From: Thermoplasmata archaeon
Lineage (GTDB): Archaea; Thermoplasmatota; Thermoplasmata; Thermoplasmatales; GCA-001856825
Reading direction: 5' to 3'
DNA: 64,000 bases
Assembly (NCBI GenBank): GCA_021792255.1
Contig: JAJYUZ010000003.1
Location: 137,405-201,404 of the forward strand
The notes under the pieces were generated by a model. The model was not told where the DNA came from, searched no databases, and worked only from the letters and a program-made list of their open reading frames with translations. Both the position numbers and the translations under genes were made by a program. The number at the start of each line of letters is the position of its first letter. Within the stretch, counting starts at the first letter, position 1. Positions 3,713 through 63,354 of this stretch are shown piece by piece.

Positions 3713-5608
3713 TTGACGGTTAAGATGAAGCGTTCTGTTATAACAATAATTGTGGTGGTAGTGGTATTAATCGTAATTGTTTCCTCATTAGGAGTCTATG
3801 AAATAAATCAAAAGAAATCTAGCACTCCGGACACACTGGTCGTCGAGGAGCCACAACCCTATGACAGTCTCGATCCTGCAGTGACTTTTGCTACGCCTGG
3901 GTGGGAAATAATGAATCAAGTCTATCAGGGATTGGTGGCACCGAATGGAACAAGCGAAACATCTTTTGTCCCAGTACTGGCACAAAACTGGTCGGTCTCT
4001 TCTGATGGAATGAGCTATACTTTCTTCCTCAGACATAACGTCACATTTTCGAATGGAGATCCCTTCAATGCGTACGTAATGTGGTTCTCTCTTTACAGGA
4101 ACATGATGGTGAATCAAGCCCCCGAATTCATTCTTGGACAGAACATGGCCACGAACAATACCGCGACTAATGACACGTTCAATATAACAACCTCATTTCT
4201 GAATGACACTAATTACACGAGCCCTAGTCCTTCTTCGCTCAGCGTAATGAACAATCCAAATCAGTCAGTGCAAGTCATAAATGCCTATGAACTGAAAATA
4301 AACATGGGTTGGGGATACAACGGTTACCTTCCATACAATCAGTTCCTCATGACGCTTACTACTCCTATGGCAGCAGCGGTCGACCCTATCGTAGTACATA
4401 ATCACGGAGGAGTGGTGGCAGGACAGCCCAATTCCTATATGGCAGCCAACGCGAACGGAACTGGATTTTATATGATAAGATCTATTACTCCGGAACAAAG
4501 TGTTACACTAGAGATAAACCCTAATTACTGGGGAGATAAGCTTCCTTCAAACCAGCTCAATGATGCTATCAGTCCTCCTCACATTAAATACATAGTGATA
4601 GAATACAAGCAGACATCCGCCATGATTTCTGATCTCAAGGGTGGCAAGGCTCAAATAGTCCAGCTCCCAGTCACGGATTATGCGAGTGCACAATCAATTT
4701 CAGGAGTTAACGCGAGTCTCCTTCCCATCAAATTTGGTTCATCTGAAAATGCGTACTACGTATTCATGGATCAGAACGTAGCGCCATTTAATGGATCCTC
4801 GGGCATCTACGTCAGAGCGGCCGTAACATACGCACTGAACTATACTGGGTTGATAAATTCCGTTTTCGGTGGCAGGGCCGTTCAATGGATTGGACCTGTG
4901 CCACCGGGATTTGAATACTACAACCGGTCGTTCTCGAGTTTGACACCGTCAGAACTCCAGTACATGCAGTCTCAGGGGTACACTTCTAATGTCACTTCTC
5001 TGAGTCCTTACCAGTACAATGCCTCTCTTGCTGCGGAATATCTCCATATGGCTGGATATCGCGCCGTTTTCCCTAACGGAACCGTACAACAGGGTCCAAA
5101 TGGTAGTCTACCATCCATCAACTTCCTTTACGATTCTGAAGACCCATCGCAAGTCTTAGCTTCTCAAATTATCGTGCAATATCTCGGAGCAATAGGTATC
5201 AACGTCACCCTGAAACCACTCACAAGCACACCTTACACATCGTGGATTTACGGAATTCTTGGGAACACGTCAGACTATCCTATGGGTATCAACTTTTACA
5301 CCGAAGACTATTCTGCAGCAATAGATTACGTTACAAATCTTGCAGCCGGTTACTACAACGGGACGGGTTACTGGAACAACACTGTTTTCAACTGGACAGT
5401 AAATGCCAGTACATCCTTTAACGATAACATAGTCGCACAGAACTTAACGTACATAACTTACGCAATGTATACCAACTACACCATGGCGTGGCTCTACGTA
5501 CCATATTTCCTCCAGGTTCATACCACAGACGTCACGGGAATGATCCCCAATACCGCAGGATCTGGAGCGGGTTACTTTATGTACTATAACACTGTGCAGT
5601 TCACATAA
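3713..5608 (+). CDS. ABC transporter substrate-binding protein, family 5 (peptide/nickel type), membrane-anchored, sequon-rich
   Basis: 631 aa. N-terminal hydrophobic anchor (ITIIVVVVVLIVIVSS) and an SBP_bac_5-like core (YDSLDP, VPVLAQNWSVSSDG..YTFFLR..V.FSNG). 26 N-X-S/T sequons by hand count. The start may be ATG 3725 rather than TTG 3713. Confidence 0.75.
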   Translation: MTVKMKRSVITIIVVVVVLIVIVSSLGVYEINQKKSSTPDTLVVEEPQPYDSLDPAVTFATPGWEIMNQVYQGLVAPNGTSETSFVPVLAQNWSVSSDGMSYTFFLRHNVTFSNGDPFNAYVMWFSLYRNMMVNQAPEFILGQNMATNNTATNDTFNITTSFLNDTNYTSPSPSSLSVMNNPNQSVQVINAYELKINMGWGYNGYLPYNQFLMTLTTPMAAAVDPIVVHNHGGVVAGQPNSYMAANANGTGFYMIRSITPEQSVTLEINPNYWGDKLPSNQLNDAISPPHIKYIVIEYKQTSAMISDLKGGKAQIVQLPVTDYASAQSISGVNASLLPIKFGSSENAYYVFMDQNVAPFNGSSGIYVRAAVTYALNYTGLINSVFGGRAVQWIGPVPPGFEYYNRSFSSLTPSELQYMQSQGYTSNVTSLSPYQYNASLAAEYLHMAGYRAVFPNGTVQQGPNGSLPSINFLYDSEDPSQVLASQIIVQYLGAIGINVTLKPLTSTPYTSWIYGILGNTSDYPMGINFYTEDYSAAIDYVTNLAAGYYNGTGYWNNTVFNWTVNASTSFNDNIVAQNLTYITYAMYTNYTMAWLYVPYFLQVHTTDVTGMIPNTAGSGAGYFMYYNTVQFT

Positions 5609-58943: not shown

Positions 58944-59693
58944 TCATTCTGCGAGCTTTCGTTGCAGGACTGCTCGTTCCAGTTTTATTAGGGCACCTGC
59001 AGTCTCCCCCTTCTTTTTGGATTGATCGGAAACAGGGTCATTCAGGAATCTCCTAGCCCTCTCCAGGTGAGCCTGTGTCTCCTTCATATCTTTCATTGAA
59101 AAATACATGTTAGCAAGAGATAATTCCGTCCTTGCATCATCTATAACGTCATCCGGAGATTTTGTCGCGACAGCATACTCGGTTCTTGAGTACCTTGGGT
59201 CTGGAGGCTGACTCGAAACGTACTCCTTCTTCACTTGCTTGAGGTAGTACGAATTCACTATACTAGTTGCCACGATGCTGCTTATAAAGACCACAAATAT
59301 GGCTGCAAAGAAAACGATGTATGAGATGGCTCTGAGGAAATAAGCTGCATAAGAAGCAACGTATCCTATTAGCAGAATTATGGGGCTTAAGTATCTTAGA
59401 ACTACGGGAAGCTGAACAATTGGAGGAGCCGTAGGGTTGTTTATGCAGAAAGATATCGTGCCAAGCAGATTGACAGCCTTCTTATCTTTCTTGCACTCGG
59501 GATTTTGGACTGTAGTAAATGCGTCATTAAGCATCTCTCTTGCTTTCGACGGTGCACCCGACAATTTGTAGAGTTGGGAAAGTTCGAATTGCGTAAATCC
59601 AATTTTATAATAGTTATGGCCCTGTCTGTTTGCTGCAGTCTCTCTTTTCAACAGTTTCTCAAGCTGAGAAATCCTCCGCTCAGCTGTTGTCAT
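58944..59693 (-). CDS. hypothetical membrane protein (helical N- and C-terminal domains flanking 2-3 TM segments)
   Basis: 249 aa with central hydrophobic segments (LSPIILLIGYVASYAAYFL, IVFFAAIFVVFISSIVATSIV). I recognise no family. Confidence 0.45.
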   Translation of the reverse strand: MTTAERRISQLEKLLKRETAANRQGHNYYKIGFTQFELSQLYKLSGAPSKAREMLNDAFTTVQNPECKKDKKAVNLLGTISFCINNPTAPPIVQLPVVLRYLSPIILLIGYVASYAAYFLRAISYIVFFAAIFVVFISSIVATSIVNSYYLKQVKKEYVSSQPPDPRYSRTEYAVATKSPDDVIDDARTELSLANMYFSMKDMKETQAHLERARRFLNDPVSDQSKKKGETAGALIKLERAVLQRKLAE

Positions 59694-59976: not shown

Positions 59977-61167
59977 TCAAAGCTTGCTCTTTACAAAATC
60001 TATGAAGACCTCTGCATCTCCGAAAACATTGGACAGTTTGGCATACTCATTGGGCATGTGTTCAGTTTCATCAAGAGTGCCCCATACTATTGTGTCTAGC
60101 CCTTTGTTCCTAAAGAATGCTCCGCAGGTCCCTCCACCTATTCCAACTCTGTTGACTTCAATCCCCCTGATCTTCTTGATACTGTTTATGAATTTCTGAA
60201 CAAATTCCTTTCCTTCTGGAGTATTGGAAGATGGGTTTGCCCTGTTGATAAATTCAAGCTGAACTTCCACTCCAAATTCCTCCTTAAATTCGTTAGTCAC
60301 TTTCTCCACTTCTTTGAAAACTTCATCAATTGAGTATCTCGGAAGAATCCTCATATCGAAATAGAAGCTCTCTTTACCGGGGATGATGTTTATCGATGTC
60401 GTCCCGGGTTCCACTTTTGTAGGTTCAAACGTGCTCATAGGAACAGTGAATTCTGAATCGGTCGCGTTGAATTTTGAATGGAGATCTTTGTCCAACCTCA
60501 ACTCCAGCTCCCTTGCTAATCTATGGGCGTTCTTTCCAGCATCCGGGGTCGATGCGTGACATTGCTGCCCCACGACGCTTATCTTGAGCCATATCAATCC
60601 CTTTTCCGCTATCTCCACCGAGTCCCCTTCCGGAGTGCCAAAATCAGGAACTACGAATTTGTCGTTTTTACTGAATTTCTTGTTACGAAGAACGTAGTCT
60701 ATACCGAAGGTGCTTCCAGCCTCCTCGTCTGAAACAAATATTACGCCTATGTTGTTCTGCAATTCCTCTGGACACTCCAAGAAGTACTTTAGTGCGATCA
60801 GGGAAGAAATTCCTCCTTGTCCGTTATCGCACGTCCCTCTTCCATAAATTTTATCTCCATCGATTGTGGCCTGGAAAGGGGGATATTTCCATAGACTTAG
60901 GTCGCCCTCACTTACTGTGTCCATGTGCGCGACAAACCAAACAGTCTTCTCCTTTCCCTTGTCCAGTAGAAACAGGAGGTTCGGTCTCTTGATTCCATCG
61001 GATACCGCTACATACTCTTCGAATTTCAAGCCCTTGTTCCAGCTCAGTATCTCCCTCTTAAGGAATTCGGCTCTCTTTTCTTCCCCTCTTCCTCCACCGG
61101 CAGGGTTAACTGCATTTATTTCAATCATCTTTGAGTACAAGTCTAAGAAGTAGTCCCTATCACTCAT
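59977..61167 (-). CDS. M20 family metallohydrolase (ArgE/DapE/LysK-like deacylase)
   Basis: 396 aa. Motifs: AHMDTV, GRGTCDNGQG, SDEEAGS, plus a C-terminal HMPNEY. Confidence 0.8.
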   Translation of the reverse strand: MSDRDYFLDLYSKMIEINAVNPAGGGRGEEKRAEFLKREILSWNKGLKFEEYVAVSDGIKRPNLLFLLDKGKEKTVWFVAHMDTVSEGDLSLWKYPPFQATIDGDKIYGRGTCDNGQGGISSLIALKYFLECPEELQNNIGVIFVSDEEAGSTFGIDYVLRNKKFSKNDKFVVPDFGTPEGDSVEIAEKGLIWLKISVVGQQCHASTPDAGKNAHRLARELELRLDKDLHSKFNATDSEFTVPMSTFEPTKVEPGTTSINIIPGKESFYFDMRILPRYSIDEVFKEVEKVTNEFKEEFGVEVQLEFINRANPSSNTPEGKEFVQKFINSIKKIRGIEVNRVGIGGGTCGAFFRNKGLDTIVWGTLDETEHMPNEYAKLSNVFGDAEVFIDFVKSKL

Positions 61168-61335: not shown

Positions 61336-63354
61336 TTGATTTTATTGGGGGGCCAAGAGATGTATATTCGCAAAGAAAGGAAAATTATAATTTCTTTACT
61401 GGCAATAATTATCGTACTGGGAAGTTTTGAACTCTTGTTCGATGAGCAGAACACCGTTAATACTGAAGCACAGCATGCGGCTTCAGCGAGCCTGAATCTG
61501 ATACCTTCAACGGATCTTTCTTCTATTTCTCTTAGTTCGGTTCAGACCGGACCGATGAACGCTTTTCCTGGGCAATTGATTAATGAGTCCTACTATCTGG
61601 GAACAACGGATCCTTCTGCGTCATACTATGAAGTTACTGTCACTCTCAACAATTCATCATATGAAACATTGGATGTATTTCCTACTGGCACAAGCGCTCT
61701 AACTCCTAGCGGGTACTATCTTCTTTTTTCTTTTGAGATGCCAAACGATCAACCCGGTATGTGGTGGACCGTGGGATATCATATTTTACCCGTTACGGTT
61801 TCTACTATTCAAGAAGGAGAACAGACCATACTAACAACAGAAGGAAGCCAAGTTTGGATGCAGTATTCAACTGAATCCATGGCAGGTAATTACATGATTA
61901 AGGGTACCGCAAATTTTTCTTTTACAAGCAACTGTACAGAAGTTCAGTTGTATCCGTCTAATCCTCAAGGCACAATAATAGTATCTTCACAAGTAAATTA
62001 TTGGAATTTTGGATCAGGAGTTATTAAAGTTGACTTTTCCCTTTATGAAAATATTGGAAACTCGAATGGGCTCACAACTCCACCATTGGTGTCTGCCTCA
62101 ATTGACTATGATGTCCCTTCGTCCTTGGCAACATCTGGGAGTTTGATATCCGGGTCAGATTACAGAATTACTTTGATTCAAGGAAACGGAGCATATATAA
62201 TGGGAATAACTTCAGGACAAATTGCCGAAATTACTGATGCTATGAACCAGACTCTTTCCATACCTATTTCGCAGTTGAATGCAGCAGTTGTATCAATAAA
62301 CGGAGACGTCGCGACCTTACAAACATCATTCGGAACAATGCTGACAGATCTCAGTTCAATAAACGCTTCTATCTCAACAATAAGATCGGGAGTTGCTTAT
62401 CTGAACACTTCCATCGGGCAAGTCAAGACTTCTCTATCATCCATAAACGCTACCATCGTGACCATAAAAGATGACACGATCACCCTAGAAACTTCTCTAG
62501 GGACCATATACACAAATCTTAATGCCGTGAACGCGACTGTTTCAAGCATCAAGAATGATCAGGCTACGATAACTACAGCAATAGGAAATGTTCAGGTCTC
62601 TCTGAGCAGTATCAATGCGATAATTCTTTCTATTGAGAATGGTGAAGCCAGTATAATTACCGACATGGGATTAATTGAAACTTCTCTCTTTAATCTCAAC
62701 GCGACCCTCGTCTCTGTAAGTTCGGGAGAGGCCAAAATTTCTACCGATATTGGAGATATAAACACGTCTATCCGTTCGCTGAATGCTTCATTTGATGGAA
62801 TTAGTGGAACGGCAGCGGTAATTCAGACAGATATAGGGATAATAGAGACTTCACTGAACTCAATTAACGCCACTATCTTCTCGATTCACCTAGGAATTGT
62901 GGGATTGAATACTTCGATCGGTAAAATAGAGGTTTCATTGAAATCTCTAAATGCTTCGATAATTGGACTCTCGGGAGACACGGCTAAAATCATGACGATA
63001 GCTGGAGAGGTCAACGCATCCTTGAGTGACCTGAATACGACCATTTTTGTTTCAGGAAGCGGCACTTCTTGGTTCAATGACACTTACGCAACTATAGAAA
63101 CGTGTTTAGGAAACATAACTGGAACAGTCACAAAGGTCTCTAACGATACCGCGACAATCGAGACCAATCTTGGTGTTGTCACGGCATCTGTGAATAGCAT
63201 AAAGACGATGAACGGTCAAGACCTGAGTGGAGATTCTTTTTCCCTTTTCGATATCATTGTCATTGCGTTGTTGGGGGCATTGATTATCATTGCATCCCTA
63301 GCAATGCTAAGCTCCAGAAGCACACTCAAGATAATGGGAGATAGAGTGAAATGA
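61336..63354 (+). CDS. membrane-anchored, sequon-rich surface protein with 28-residue tandem repeats
   Basis: 672 aa. N-terminal signal/anchor (IIISLLAIIIVLGSF), a globular region of about 300 aa, nine 28-aa repeats, a degenerate repeat tail, a C-terminal TM (LFDIIVIALLGALIIIASLAMLS) and a basic tail. At least 21 N-X-S/T sequons by hand count. Confidence 0.75.
   Translation: MILLGGQEMYIRKERKIIISLLAIIIVLGSFELLFDEQNTVNTEAQHAASASLNLIPSTDLSSISLSSVQTGPMNAFPGQLINESYYLGTTDPSASYYEVTVTLNNSSYETLDVFPTGTSALTPSGYYLLFSFEMPNDQPGMWWTVGYHILPVTVSTIQEGEQTILTTEGSQVWMQYSTESMAGNYMIKGTANFSFTSNCTEVQLYPSNPQGTIIVSSQVNYWNFGSGVIKVDFSLYENIGNSNGLTTPPLVSASIDYDVPSSLATSGSLISGSDYRITLIQGNGAYIMGITSGQIAEITDAMNQTLSIPISQLNAAVVSINGDVATLQTSFGTMLTDLSSINASISTIRSGVAYLNTSIGQVKTSLSSINATIVTIKDDTITLETSLGTIYTNLNAVNATVSSIKNDQATITTAIGNVQVSLSSINAIILSIENGEASIITDMGLIETSLFNLNATLVSVSSGEAKISTDIGDINTSIRSLNASFDGISGTAAVIQTDIGIIETSLNSINATIFSIHLGIVGLNTSIGKIEVSLKSLNASIIGLSGDTAKIMTIAGEVNASLSDLNTTIFVSGSGTSWFNDTYATIETCLGNITGTVTKVSNDTATIETNLGVVTASVNSIKTMNGQDLSGDSFSLFDIIVIALLGALIIIASLAMLSSRSTLKIMGDRVK
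62266..63021 (+). repeat. nine in-frame 84-nt (28-codon) tandem repeats inside the surface-protein gene
   Basis: Units begin ISQLNAAVV, LSSINASIS, LSSINATIV, LNAVNATVS, LSSINAIIL, LFNLNATLV, IRSLNASFD, LNSINATIF, LKSLNASII. Consensus: L-x-S-(I/L)-N-A-(T/S)-I-x-(S/T)-I-x-x-G/D-x-A-x-I/L-x-T-S/D-I-G-x-I/V-x-T-S. The repeats are diverged at the DNA level. Confidence 0.85.

What the first reader, a model, noticed from the sequence alone, without database searches (positions are those of the whole stretch)
61336..63354. Surface protein with nine exact-length 28-residue repeats, each carrying an N-A-(T/S) sequon
Seen: residues encoded by 62266-63021 form nine contiguous 28-aa units with no length variation. 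The consensus is L-x-S-(I/L)-N-A-(T/S)-I-x-(S/T)-I-x-x-(G/D)-x-A-x-(I/L)-x-T-(S/D)-I-G-x-(I/V)-x-T-S. Degenerate copies follow up to about 63210, then a C-terminal TM anchor. Hydrophobic residues fall at unit positions 1, 4, 8, 11, 18, 22 and 25. This is a continuous 3-4 heptad spacing over 36 heptads, with one polar 'a' position per unit, an invariant Asn sequon at positions 5-7 and a near-invariant Gly at 23. Inference: it could be a long glycosylated coiled-coil stalk, roughly 37 nm if fully helical at 0.148 nm per residue. Given the I/T/S/N/G-rich composition, it could instead be a beta-solenoid. In a probably wall-less or S-layer-poor Thermoplasmata-like cell, this could be a major envelope or adhesion component. 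I do not recognise the repeat as a named family.
Basis: partly seen in the sequence, partly recalled or inferred. Interest (0 to 1): 0.6.

Follow-up and report, generated by a model that had tools for sequence, protein, structure and literature searches.

The report
Archaeal surface glycoprotein with repeat stalk
This gene encodes a membrane-anchored, probably sugar-coated cell-surface protein of an acid-loving archaeon whose long stalk is built from 28-residue repeats that look like a coiled coil on paper but are predicted with high confidence to fold as a rod of short beta strands unlike any solved structure.

Summary
The repeat is real. Nine exact 28-residue units (62266-63021) plus two degenerate ones lie between an Ig-like head and a C-terminal membrane anchor. 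Only 7 of the 9 units carry an N-A-(S/T) sequon, not all of them. The gene most likely starts at ATG 61360 (664 aa).

It has about 25 full-length orthologues in uncultured Thermoplasmatales-like genomes. The neck, repeat stalk and anchor also form the C-terminus of hundreds of larger archaeal surface proteins with other heads, including two paralogues in this genome and proteins of Aciduliprofundum. All are annotated hypothetical or misnamed.

The coiled-coil reading is not supported as stated. Each unit is four heptads, and only coiled-coil families match, all below threshold. Against this:
- AlphaFold2 with two alignments gives three 6-residue strands and a short helical turn per unit (pLDDT up to 95).
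- The most conserved positions (Gly23 99%, Thr20 95%, Ala6, Ala16) sit at heptad b/f.
- Conservation has no 3.5-residue period.
- Sequon Asn residues fall on the predicted exposed face.

No solved or viral predicted structure matches the rod.

My reading: a glycosylated beta-rich pedestal, SlaB-like in role but not in sequence (about 0.6); an alpha-helical coiled coil remains possible (about 0.25). The scan earlier noted sequon-bearing heptad stalks in other archaea, read there as coiled coils.

The parts
61360..63354 (+). Whole gene, 664 aa plus stop. An in-frame TTG at 61336 would add 8 residues but is probably not the start.
   Evidence: ORF list. All 23 orthologues in A1 begin at the Met that aligns with 61360.
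61360..61449 (+). N-terminal basic stretch plus hydrophobic helix (aa 1-30): a Sec signal peptide or an uncleaved signal anchor.
   Evidence: Sequence. AF2 helix 5-30. Cleavage could not be tested with these tools.
61450..61551 (+). Poorly conserved linker, predicted disordered (aa 31-64).
   Evidence: pLDDT below 50 for residues 21-64. Variable columns in A1.
61555..62175 (+). Head: Ig-like beta-sandwich domain (aa 66-272) with invariant F-P-G and P-N-D..G.W-W motifs.
   Evidence: AF2 strands 66-272. VIA-align: best Z 7.9, rmsd 3.2, 97 aligned (9rkt_A), tied with many Ig-like domains, so only a generic sandwich. Invariant columns F69 P70 G71 P128 N129 D130 G133 W135 W136.
62176..62265 (+). 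Neck (aa 273-302). It is the most conserved stretch of the superfamily (L-x-x-G-N-G-A...G-I-T-S-x-Q-I-A-x-I) and includes a short helix.
   Evidence: Invariant and near-invariant columns 272-310. Most superfamily matches begin at query residues 263-278. AF2 helix at aa 285-294.
62266..63021 (+). Nine exact 28-residue repeat units (aa 303-554). Each is four heptads of the form h-x-[ST]-I-[NQ]-x-x. Each is predicted as a 4-residue helical turn, then N-A, then three 6-residue strands joined by 2-residue turns.
   Evidence: repeat and profile. (AF2; pLDDT 80-87 and 92-96).
63022..63189 (+). Two degenerate units (aa 555-610), predicted to form a small SH3/Tudor-like beta cap. In many relatives a conserved 21-residue unit lies at this point of the stalk.
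   Evidence: AF2 strands. VIA-align Z 5.6, rmsd 2.3, 50 aligned, for model residues 305-354 only. A 21-residue spacing at the last unit in relatives.
63190..63237 (+). Short variable spacer before the membrane (aa 611-626).
   Evidence: pLDDT below 50 for residues 618-629. Variable columns in A1.
63238..63315 (+). C-terminal transmembrane helix (aa 627-652).
   Evidence: 26 hydrophobic residues. AF2 helix 629-660.
63316..63351 (+). Conserved basic cytoplasmic tail R-S-T-L-K-I-M-G-D-[KR]-V-K (aa 653-664).
   Evidence: R653, L656, K657, I658 and K664 are at least 90% conserved in A1.

Best explanation
The gene encodes a cell-surface glycoprotein of an acidophilic Thermoplasmatales-like archaeon.

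Layout: a signal sequence takes the chain across the membrane. A C-terminal helix with a basic tail anchors it. Between them lie an Ig-like head, a conserved neck and a rod of eleven 28-residue units.

I read the rod as a beta-rich repeat, not a canonical coiled coil. Each unit would form three short strands joined by tight Gly-containing turns, plus a one-turn helical linker that carries the main N-glycosylation sequon. A conserved face of alternating large (Ile/Leu/Val) and small (Ala/Thr/Gly) residues would be buried. The variable face and the linker would be exposed and carry the glycans.

The rod would act as a stiff, protease- and acid-resistant, sugar-coated pedestal that holds the head away from the membrane. 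The same neck-rod-anchor cassette is reused under many different heads, so it would be a general mounting device for envelope proteins in these archaea. Its role resembles that of the SlaB stalk of Sulfolobales.

Shown: the repeat, its conservation, the family and its modular spread, and the predicted secondary structure.
Inferred: surface location, glycosylation, burial pattern, pedestal role, oligomeric state and length.
For: Architecture:
- N-terminal hydrophobic helix, beta-sandwich at 66-272, repeats, C-terminal helix with a basic tail.

Fold:
- AF2 on 24 orthologues: the repeat region is all strands, pLDDT 80-87.
- AF2 on 83 wider relatives: mean pLDDT 86.6, pTM 0.70, 270 of 364 residues at 90 or above. 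The same three strands plus a 4-residue helix appear per unit, and all five models score 84.8-86.6.

Conservation over 852 distinct units from 197 proteins:
- G23 99%, T20 95%, A6 77%, A16 70%. These are heptad b/f positions.
- Positions 13/14 are G/N/D-rich.
- The conservation profile has 1% of its variance at period 3.5 and 34% at 2.33.
- Hydropathy power in the window's stalk is 406 at 2.334 residues and 214 at 3.50. A pure a/d pattern would give the reverse ratio; that expectation is my own calculation.

Composition: Ile+Val+Thr 37%, Ser+Thr+Asn+Gly 44%, charged residues 10%.

Sequons: 914 in 859 units. None lies at positions 1, 4, 6, 8, 11, 16, 18, 20, 22, 23, 25 or 27, which are the conserved positions. 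Of the 914, 424 lie at linker position 5.

Glycosylation capacity: an STT3/AglB match of 43.9 bits (cut-off 24.5) in the same genome.

Modularity:
- 754 proteins match at E<=1e-3.
- A stalk profile hits 200 of the 202 retrieved proteins, nearly always with 30-65 residues left after it.
- Heads include Beta_helix/NosD, PKD, MG2 and a prenyltransferase-like toroid.
- There are two paralogues in this genome.

Distribution: 18 of 18 genomes of the same genus, 22 of 25 of the family and 43 of 169 of the order.
Against: Heptad character:
- The unit is four heptads, and insertions and deletions are heptad-quantised. Distances between successive units are 28 (578 cases), 56 (67), 21 (41), 49 (14), 63 (12) and 35 (7).
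- The span of the array is a multiple of 7 in 172 of 197 proteins.
- Large hydrophobic residues sit at a/d throughout, and side-chain volume has 62% of its variance at period 3.5.
- Proline is 0.1% of unit residues.

Sequence matches all point to alpha-helical coiled coils:
- DUF1664 matches in 24 of 24 orthologues, with FlaC, Laminin_II and NPV_P10 also matching.
- In the PDB: a GCN4-SadA fusion at E 4e-6, a designed coiled coil, and the reovirus sigma-1 tail.

Weak or missing support for the beta model:
- Covariation among units is weak and only partly fits hairpins. The B-C hairpin antidiagonal is positive and the A-B one is not.
- No solved or viral predicted structure resembles the predicted rod, so the model has no experimental precedent.
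- The coordinates could not be inspected, so the packing of units and the length are my inference.

Not shown: surface exposure, glycosylation and expression.
Confidence: 0.6

Rival explanations
1. The stalk is an alpha-helical coiled coil, trimeric or tetramer-like given Leu/Val at a and Ile at d. It would be about 45 nm long for 308 residues, with Asn/Gln at e and small residues at b, c and f because acid-exposed proteins avoid charge. On this reading AlphaFold2 is misled by the low helix propensity of the sequence.
For: - Uninterrupted heptad phase over 44 heptads, with heptad-quantised length changes.
- Side-chain volume period of 3.5.
- Almost no proline.
- Every sequence match is to a coiled-coil family or structure, including the Ser/Thr/Gly-containing reovirus sigma-1 tail.
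- Pfam describes the related DUF7310 as a coiled coil.
- Earlier notes of this scan read similar I-N-x-T heptad stalks of other archaea as coiled coils (not checked here).
- The SlaB and tetrabrachion precedent (recalled).
Against: - Two AF2 runs give no helix in the units beyond four residues each.
- The strongest conservation is at b/f positions: G23 99%, T20 95%, A6 and A16. The conservation profile has 1% of its variance at period 3.5.
- There are about two Gly per 28 residues, with N-G-like dipeptides at positions 12-14.
- Hydropathy is stronger at 2.33 than at 3.5.
- 688 of 914 sequon Asn residues lie at e, a position flanking the core, and only 127 at b/c/f.
- All the Pfam matches of the window's protein are below their cut-offs and spread over many unrelated coiled-coil families. 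That pattern fits shared periodicity rather than kinship.
Confidence: 0.25
2. The strands are real, but the monomeric meander is an artefact of folding one chain. On this reading three chains interdigitate into a fibre such as a triple beta-helix or beta-spiral, as in phage and adenovirus/reovirus fibres. Gly would sit at the corners and the small and large residues in a shared core.
For: - Both faces of the predicted strands carry some hydrophobic residues.
- Three strand-plus-turn segments of 8-9 residues per unit, with an invariant Gly.
- Weak sequence matches to fibre proteins: sigma-1 at E 0.05, and adenovirus fibre at E 0.07 for the head region only.
- Orthologues differ by blocks of exactly three units.
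Against: - No Foldseek or VIA match to any fibre, tailspike or beta-helix structure.
- The monomer model is already very confident, with pTM 0.70.
- The three-unit blocks amount to only two events among the 24 sequences.
Confidence: 0.1
3. The N-terminal helix is not cleaved, so the protein is tied to the membrane at both ends. It would then lie on the membrane as part of a glycoprotein coat rather than standing up as a stalk with a distal head.
For: The N-terminal hydrophobic segment is long, with an AF2 helix at 5-30, and no clear small-x-small cleavage motif follows it. Only about 35 disordered residues link it to the head.
Against: In the larger relatives the same cassette sits at the C-terminus below up to 1500 residues of extracellular domains, which fits a pedestal. 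The N-terminal region is poorly conserved apart from its charge and hydrophobicity, as signal peptides are.
Confidence: 0.1

Closest known systems
SlaB, the membrane-anchored stalk protein of the Sulfolobales S-layer. Its architecture is recalled from memory and named in earlier scan notes (PDB 8QOX). A passage of bioRxiv 10.1101/2021.04.28.441871 cites Veith 2009 for the stalk role.
   Same: Signal sequence, beta-sandwich domain(s), a long sequon-rich rod, a single C-terminal transmembrane helix, and a role as a pedestal in the envelope of an acidophile.
   Different: No SlaB chain appeared in either PDB sequence search at E<=1 or E<=10. SlaB's rod is a trimeric alpha-helical coiled coil, whereas this rod is predicted as beta. 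Here the cassette also sits directly under large heads within one polypeptide.
Pfam PF23991 DUF7310, 'coiled-coil region of unknown function', and PF07889 DUF1664
   Same: DUF7310 (83 positions, about three units) is matched above its 40-bit cut-off by 5 of 26 larger relatives that carry the same repeat: P0072 69.4, P0088 48.0, P0092 41.4, P0077 40.3 and P0099 94.7. DUF1664 is matched at E<=0.01 by 24 of 24 orthologues.
   Different: The window's protein scores 28 bits on DUF1664, below the 34.6 cut-off. It has no DUF7310 match at E<=1. Both families have unknown function, and their 'coiled-coil' label disagrees with the AF2 models made here.
Polar, Ser/Thr/Asn-rich trimeric coiled-coil stalks: the reovirus sigma-1 tail (6gaj, 6gao, 6gap) and trimeric autotransporter adhesin stalks (2yny, 2wpr)
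   Same: Heptad pattern with aliphatic a/d positions, polar uncharged outer positions and occasional h-G-x-h motifs. These are the best sequence matches in the PDB: E 4e-6 for 2yny with the orthologue profile and E 0.05 for 6gaj with the single protein.
   Different: The matches are weak and partly to the GCN4 adaptor of the fusion construct. These proteins have no strict 28-residue unit and no invariant Gly/Thr/Ala positions. They are solved as helices, whereas this rod is predicted as strands.
Beta-propeller blades (BamB, WD40) and beta-hairpin repeat rods such as choline-binding or clostridial toxin repeats (the latter recalled)
   Same: Foldseek's best hits for both models are beta-propellers, E about 1e-5 and probability up to 0.9. 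This indicates a local likeness to runs of antiparallel meanders with tight turns.
   Different: TM-scores are about 0.1 and rmsd about 30 A, so the overall shape is not a closed propeller. VIA-align finds nothing above Z 5.6, and that only for the C-terminal cap. Hairpin-repeat rods were not among the listed matches.

Membership tests
Canonical alpha-helical coiled coil | Unbroken heptad spacing of hydrophobic a/d positions | tested here: met
   Large aliphatic residues lie at unit positions 1, 4, 8, 11, 15, 18, 22 and 25. Side-chain volume has 62% of its variance at period 3.5. Array spans are multiples of 7 in 172 of 197 proteins.
Canonical alpha-helical coiled coil | Conservation concentrated at core (a/d) positions, with free b/c/f positions | tested here: not met
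   The conservation profile has 1% of its variance at period 3.5. Four of the six most conserved positions are b or f: G23, T20, A6 and A16.
Canonical alpha-helical coiled coil | Predicted helical secondary structure | tested here: not met
   AF2 with two alignments gives three strands per unit and only 4-residue helices. This is a prediction, not a measurement.
SlaB (Sulfolobales S-layer stalk protein) | Detectable sequence kinship with SlaB | tested here: inconclusive
   No SlaB chain was listed in the PDB sequence searches, with the single protein at E<=1 or with the orthologue profile at E<=10. Distant kinship cannot be excluded by sequence alone.
SlaB (Sulfolobales S-layer stalk protein) | Architecture: signal, beta-sandwich domain(s), rod, C-terminal transmembrane helix | tested here: met
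SlaB (Sulfolobales S-layer stalk protein) | Partner canopy protein (SlaA-like) and lattice formation | not testable with these tools
   No SlaA-like neighbour was seen. The conserved neighbours are an M20 peptidase and a TPR membrane protein.
Pfam DUF7310 (PF23991) | Score at or above the curated cut-off of 40 bits | tested here: not met
   The window's protein has no match at E<=1. Four of 24 orthologues match at E<=0.01, best 3e-5. Five of 26 larger relatives pass the cut-off.
Pfam DUF1664 (PF07889) | Score at or above the curated cut-off of 34.6 bits | tested here: not met
   27.8-28.0 bits.
Parallel beta-helix / beta-solenoid | Structural likeness to solved beta-helices | tested here: inconclusive
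   No beta-helix chain was among the rows shown by Foldseek (top 50) or VIA-align for either model. The listed hits are antiparallel folds.
N-glycosylated archaeal surface protein | Conserved N-x-S/T sequons on an extracellular domain, and an oligosaccharyltransferase in the genome | tested here: met
   21 sequons against 12.2 +/- 2.8 expected. There are 18-27 per protein in all 24 orthologues. Position 5 is a sequon in 49% of 859 units. STT3 scores 43.9 bits in the genome. Actual glycosylation is not testable here.

The most novel reading that the evidence does not exclude
The 28-residue unit is a fold type not yet solved: a heptad-derived beta rod in which three of every four heptads form a strand plus a tight turn, and the fourth forms a glycan-bearing linker. 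It would serve as the standard membrane pedestal for the envelope proteins of acidophilic Thermoplasmatota and of the DPANN archaea that live with them. If so, database labels such as 'coiled-coil region' (DUF7310), 'prefoldin subunit' and 'methyl-accepting chemotaxis protein' for hundreds of archaeal proteins are wrong. Heptad periodicity alone would then be an unsafe guide to coiled coils in acid-exposed proteins.
Probability: 0.4. Interest if true: 0.75.

Novelty: new variant of a known kind. Interest (0 to 1): 0.55.

Why it matters
The envelope proteins of Thermoplasmatales-like archaea are largely unknown. Passages of PMC10354927 say the proteins behind the only S-layers visualised in the order (Picrophilus) are unidentified.

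This cassette gives a concrete, widespread candidate for how such cells mount proteins on a single membrane at very low pH. It is present in 18 of 18 genomes of the genus. It also occurs in cultured Aciduliprofundum, where experiments are possible.

It is also a sharp test case for structure prediction. The sequence has textbook heptad periodicity, yet AlphaFold2 gives a confident beta model with no solved counterpart. One CD spectrum or one structure would show whether this is a new repeat fold or a systematic prediction error. Either result bears on how the many sequon-bearing archaeal stalks are read.

Tried and rejected
- Complex prediction with three copies of aa 268-600: no verdict. The score was 0.00, the chain's own fold was uncertain and the controls were not run. 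It says nothing either way about oligomerisation.
- The look-up of sequencing runs for RNA: no RNA holder was listed. Expression is untested.
- ESM Atlas: no model held, and no feature hit at or above 0.9.
- Foldseek on the PDB and on BFVD, and VIA-align wide and second-look, on the stalk model: nothing matches the rod. The best result is Z 5.6 for the 50-residue cap only.
- On the whole model, only generic Ig-like matches to the head, Z <= 7.9.
- First hydropathy spectrum: its 'no power near 2.33' came from a grid too coarse for a 308-residue array. The fine grid replaces it.
- Mean-field covariation on 852 units and 532 unit pairs: noisy. Odd separations (3, 5, 7) score above even ones (4, 6, 8), and the antidiagonal of the second hairpin is positive, but the first hairpin is not seen. 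I give this little weight.
- A 120-row alignment was too large for structure prediction, so a smaller one was used.
- Micrarchaeum S-layer protein (passages of bioRxiv 10.1101/2021.04.28.441871): a different family (TIGR01564-type), so not this protein.
- S-layer survey (bioRxiv 10.1101/2024.05.28.596244, passages for six search terms): no mention of this module in the passages seen.
- Supplement file 3 of PMC3750248 lists two I-plasma 'S-layer protein P. torridus' homologues by gene number. I could not map them to the orthologue found here. Files 9, 13 and 14 of that paper were not searched.
- Papers searched for a description of this repeat or cassette: none found among the listed titles and the passages read.
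Full report
**The observation**

The frame 61336..63354 (+) is open and gives 672 aa from a TTG. All 23 orthologues aligned in A1 begin at the Met encoded at 61360, so the protein is most likely 664 aa. Residue numbers below use the 664-aa form.

Nucleotides 62266-63021 encode nine contiguous 28-residue units with no insertion or deletion. Two degenerate units, a 26-residue hydrophobic segment and a basic tail follow.
- Residue identity at lag 28 is 0.406. The highest value at any lag in 2000 shuffles was 0.193.
- The units are 29-54% identical as protein and 46% on average as DNA. Tandem Repeats Finder sees nothing. The array is therefore old and kept by selection on the protein.
- One detail does not hold: only 7 of the 9 units have N-A-(S/T). 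Units 1 and 5 read N-A-A and N-A-I.
- The ectodomain has 21 sequons, against 12.2 +/- 2.8 expected from composition.

**Family and spread**

A word-indexed search found 63 relatives. About 25 of them are full-length orthologues of 568-740 aa, at 37-90% identity. Where named, they come from uncultured Thermoplasmatales or Thermoplasmatota genomes. The closest named one (62%) is a 'PKD protein' of 'Thermoplasmatales archaeon I-plasma'. Other source names are 'prefoldin subunit 5' and 'methyl-accepting chemotaxis protein'.

Orthologues differ by blocks of exactly 84 residues, that is three units. The forms have 8, 11 or 14 units.

An exhaustive HMMER search found 754 proteins at E<=1e-3 and 320 at E<=1e-10. 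Most are 900-2000 aa and match only query residues from about 265 onward.

A profile of the neck plus rod hits 200 of the 202 proteins retrieved, nearly always with 30-65 residues left after it. So the neck, rod and anchor form a C-terminal cassette.

Heads above the cassette include Beta_helix/NosD, PKD, MG2, Big_6 and a prenyltransferase-like toroid.
- Some relatives place a copy of the window protein's own head domain directly before the cassette.
- Named sources include Micrarchaeaceae and Parvarchaeota.

This genome (1.59 Mb, 93.6% complete) has two more carriers, of 1175 and 1376 aa, on another contig.

In the same order, 43 of 169 genomes have a match at E<=1e-5. That includes 18 of 18 of the genus and 22 of 25 of the family, but only 5 of 103 of the largest family. 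One carrier, a 1408-aa ORF in a complete genome, is identical to hypothetical protein AciM339_0912 of Aciduliprofundum sp. MAR08-339.

**What the curated libraries say**

No Pfam or NCBIfam model reaches its cut-off on the window's protein.
- The best is DUF1664, at 28 bits against a cut-off of 34.6.
- All 24 orthologues give weak hits to a scatter of unrelated coiled-coil families: DUF1664 24, COG6_N 19, Laminin_II 18, FlaC 18, and so on. That is the signature of shared periodicity, not of kinship.
- Five of 26 larger relatives pass the cut-off of DUF7310, 'coiled-coil region of unknown function'.
- PDB sequence searches return only helical coiled coils. These include a GCN4-SadA fusion at E 4e-6 with the orthologue profile, a designed coiled coil, and the reovirus sigma-1 tail.

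**Coiled coil or beta**

The case for a coiled coil is real.
- The unit is four heptads of the form h-x-[ST]-I-[NQ]-x-x.
- Unit-to-unit distances other than 28 are almost all multiples of 7.
- Array spans are multiples of 7 in 172 of 197 proteins.
- Proline is 0.1% of unit residues.
- Side-chain volume has 62% of its variance at period 3.5.

Five results point the other way.

(i) Structure prediction.
- AlphaFold2 on the 24 orthologues gives strands throughout the repeats, with pLDDT 80-87.
- With an independent 83-row alignment of wider relatives, mean pLDDT is 86.6, pTM is 0.70 and 270 of 364 residues are at 90 or above. All five models agree.
- Each unit reads: a 4-residue helix (positions 1-4), N-A, strand 7-12, a two-residue turn, strand 15-20, a two-residue turn, strand 23-28.

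(ii) Conserved positions. Over 852 distinct units, the most conserved positions are G23 (99%), T20 (95%), A6, L1, A16 and I18. Four of these six are heptad b or f positions, which are the freest positions in a coiled coil. The conservation profile has 1% of its variance at 3.5 residues and 34% at 2.33.

(iii) Turn positions. Positions 12-14 are N/G/D-rich, and G23 follows T-[DS]-h. From memory, these resemble classic hairpin turns (N-G type I', and a type I turn with a Gly bulge). That comparison is recalled, not tested.

(iv) Hydropathy. On a fine grid, power is 406 at 2.334 residues and 214 at 3.50. A bare a/d pattern would give about twice as much at 3.5 as at 2.33 (my calculation). An earlier coarse-grid run that seemed to show no 2.33 signal was an artefact.

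(v) Sequon positions. Of 914 sequons in 859 units, none falls on the conserved positions. 424 fall on linker position 5. 688 fall on heptad e positions (5, 12, 19, 26), which in the AF2 model are the linker, a strand end and the variable face.

In the beta model the conserved face alternates large and small residues: A16-I18-T20, G23-I25-T27, I4-A6-V8. That places large residues 3-4 apart and so produces the apparent heptad. The common 21-residue unit is one conserved feature at the end of the array, where the linker is missing and two strands fuse. The rarer 35-residue units lengthen the linker by seven residues.

Covariation among units is weak and only partly supports hairpins.

**Fold comparison**

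For both models, Foldseek's best PDB hits are beta-propellers and Ig arrays. TM-scores are about 0.1 and rmsd about 30 A. This means local meander likeness only.
- VIA-align against 48,161 representative chains gives at most Z 5.6 (rmsd 2.3, 50 aligned). Those matches cover only the last 50 residues, a small SH3/Tudor-like cap.
- BFVD gives nothing with TM above 0.16.
- The head is a generic Ig-like sandwich: Z 7.9, rmsd 3.2, 97 aligned, tied with many others.

So the rod is either a fold with no solved counterpart or a confident misprediction. I could not inspect coordinates. The packing of units, the oligomeric state and the length are therefore inference. The geometric estimates are roughly 11-16 nm for a beta rod and about 45 nm for a helix.

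**Context**

The divergent M20 peptidase and a TPR membrane protein are conserved neighbours in 11 of 13 related loci examined. They give no functional link. An STT3/AglB homologue is present in the genome.

Passages of PMC3750248 report surface layers on acid-mine Thermoplasmatales-like cells by cryo-EM. They also report S-layer gene candidates in I-plasma. Its supplement file 3 names two, which I could not map to this orthologue.

Passages of PMC10354927 state that the proteins behind the Picrophilus S-layer are unidentified.

I found no paper describing this repeat or cassette in four searches. This judgement rests on the listed titles and the passages read.

Earlier notes of this scan describe sequon-bearing heptad stalks in other archaea, read there as coiled coils with SlaB as the closest known. 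None shares sequence words with this one. I did not check those notes.

**Verdict**

The protein is a membrane-anchored, very probably N-glycosylated envelope protein. It is the smallest bearer of a widespread, uncharacterised archaeal neck-rod-anchor cassette. In role it resembles SlaB-type pedestals, but it is not a demonstrable member of that family.

I put the beta-rod reading at about 0.6, a true alpha-helical coiled coil at about 0.25, and an intertwined trimeric beta fibre at about 0.1. Separately, I put the chance that the N-terminal helix stays uncleaved, leaving the protein tied to the membrane at both ends, at about 0.1. One CD spectrum of the recombinant rod would decide between the first two.

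Noticed in passing
window 3725-5608 (+): A 627-aa ORF with an N-terminal hydrophobic anchor has the highest sequon density in the window: 41.5 per 1000 aa, against a median of 3.4. It is probably another heavily glycosylated extracellular protein.
   Followed up: no
own genome G000:C7:11190-11975 (outside the window): The only STT3/AglB match of the genome lies in an open frame of 2041 aa, far longer than usual for AglB. An earlier scan note (e1-4450601) describes giant AglB fusions in another archaeal lineage.
   Followed up: no
L021 2662-6189 (+) and L022 2338-6468 (+), own genome contig 9: These are two large paralogues (1175 and 1376 aa) with the same C-terminal neck-rod-anchor cassette. 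The first has no Pfam match at all, and a 778-aa thermopsin-family protease gene lies next to it, convergently oriented (L021 6334-8670, minus strand).
   Followed up: partly
L023 822-4910 (-) and L024 629-4855 (+): In two complete genomes of the same order, 1362- and 1408-aa surface proteins end in the same cassette. L023 has three consecutive units that are identical letter for letter, which indicates recent unit duplication. Their cytoplasmic tails are acidic (E-rich), not basic as here.
   Followed up: partly
alignment A1, columns 369-536: Orthologues differ in length by blocks of exactly 84 residues (three units), giving 8-, 11- and 14-unit forms. Lag-56 similarity slightly exceeds lag-28 in many proteins, which hints at a two-unit super-repeat.
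   Followed up: partly
window 58944-59693 (-) and 59977-61167 (-): A 249-aa TPR protein with predicted membrane segments and an M20 peptidase lie upstream of the orthologue in 11 of 13 related loci. No functional link is evident.
   Followed up: partly
P0099 (2716 aa): A 'membrane associated protein' of Bodo saltans virus matches the stalk in 11 stretches. It has a 7-residue rather than a 28-residue main period and scores 119 bits on NPV_P10 and 95 bits on DUF7310. It is probably a true heptad protein that is picked up through shared periodicity.
   Followed up: no
window aa 653-664 (63316-63351): The 12-residue cytoplasmic tail is almost invariant across orthologues (R-S-T-L-K-I-M-G-D-K-V-K). 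That is unusual for a mere stop-transfer signal and may mark a cytoplasmic partner or a sorting signal.
   Followed up: no
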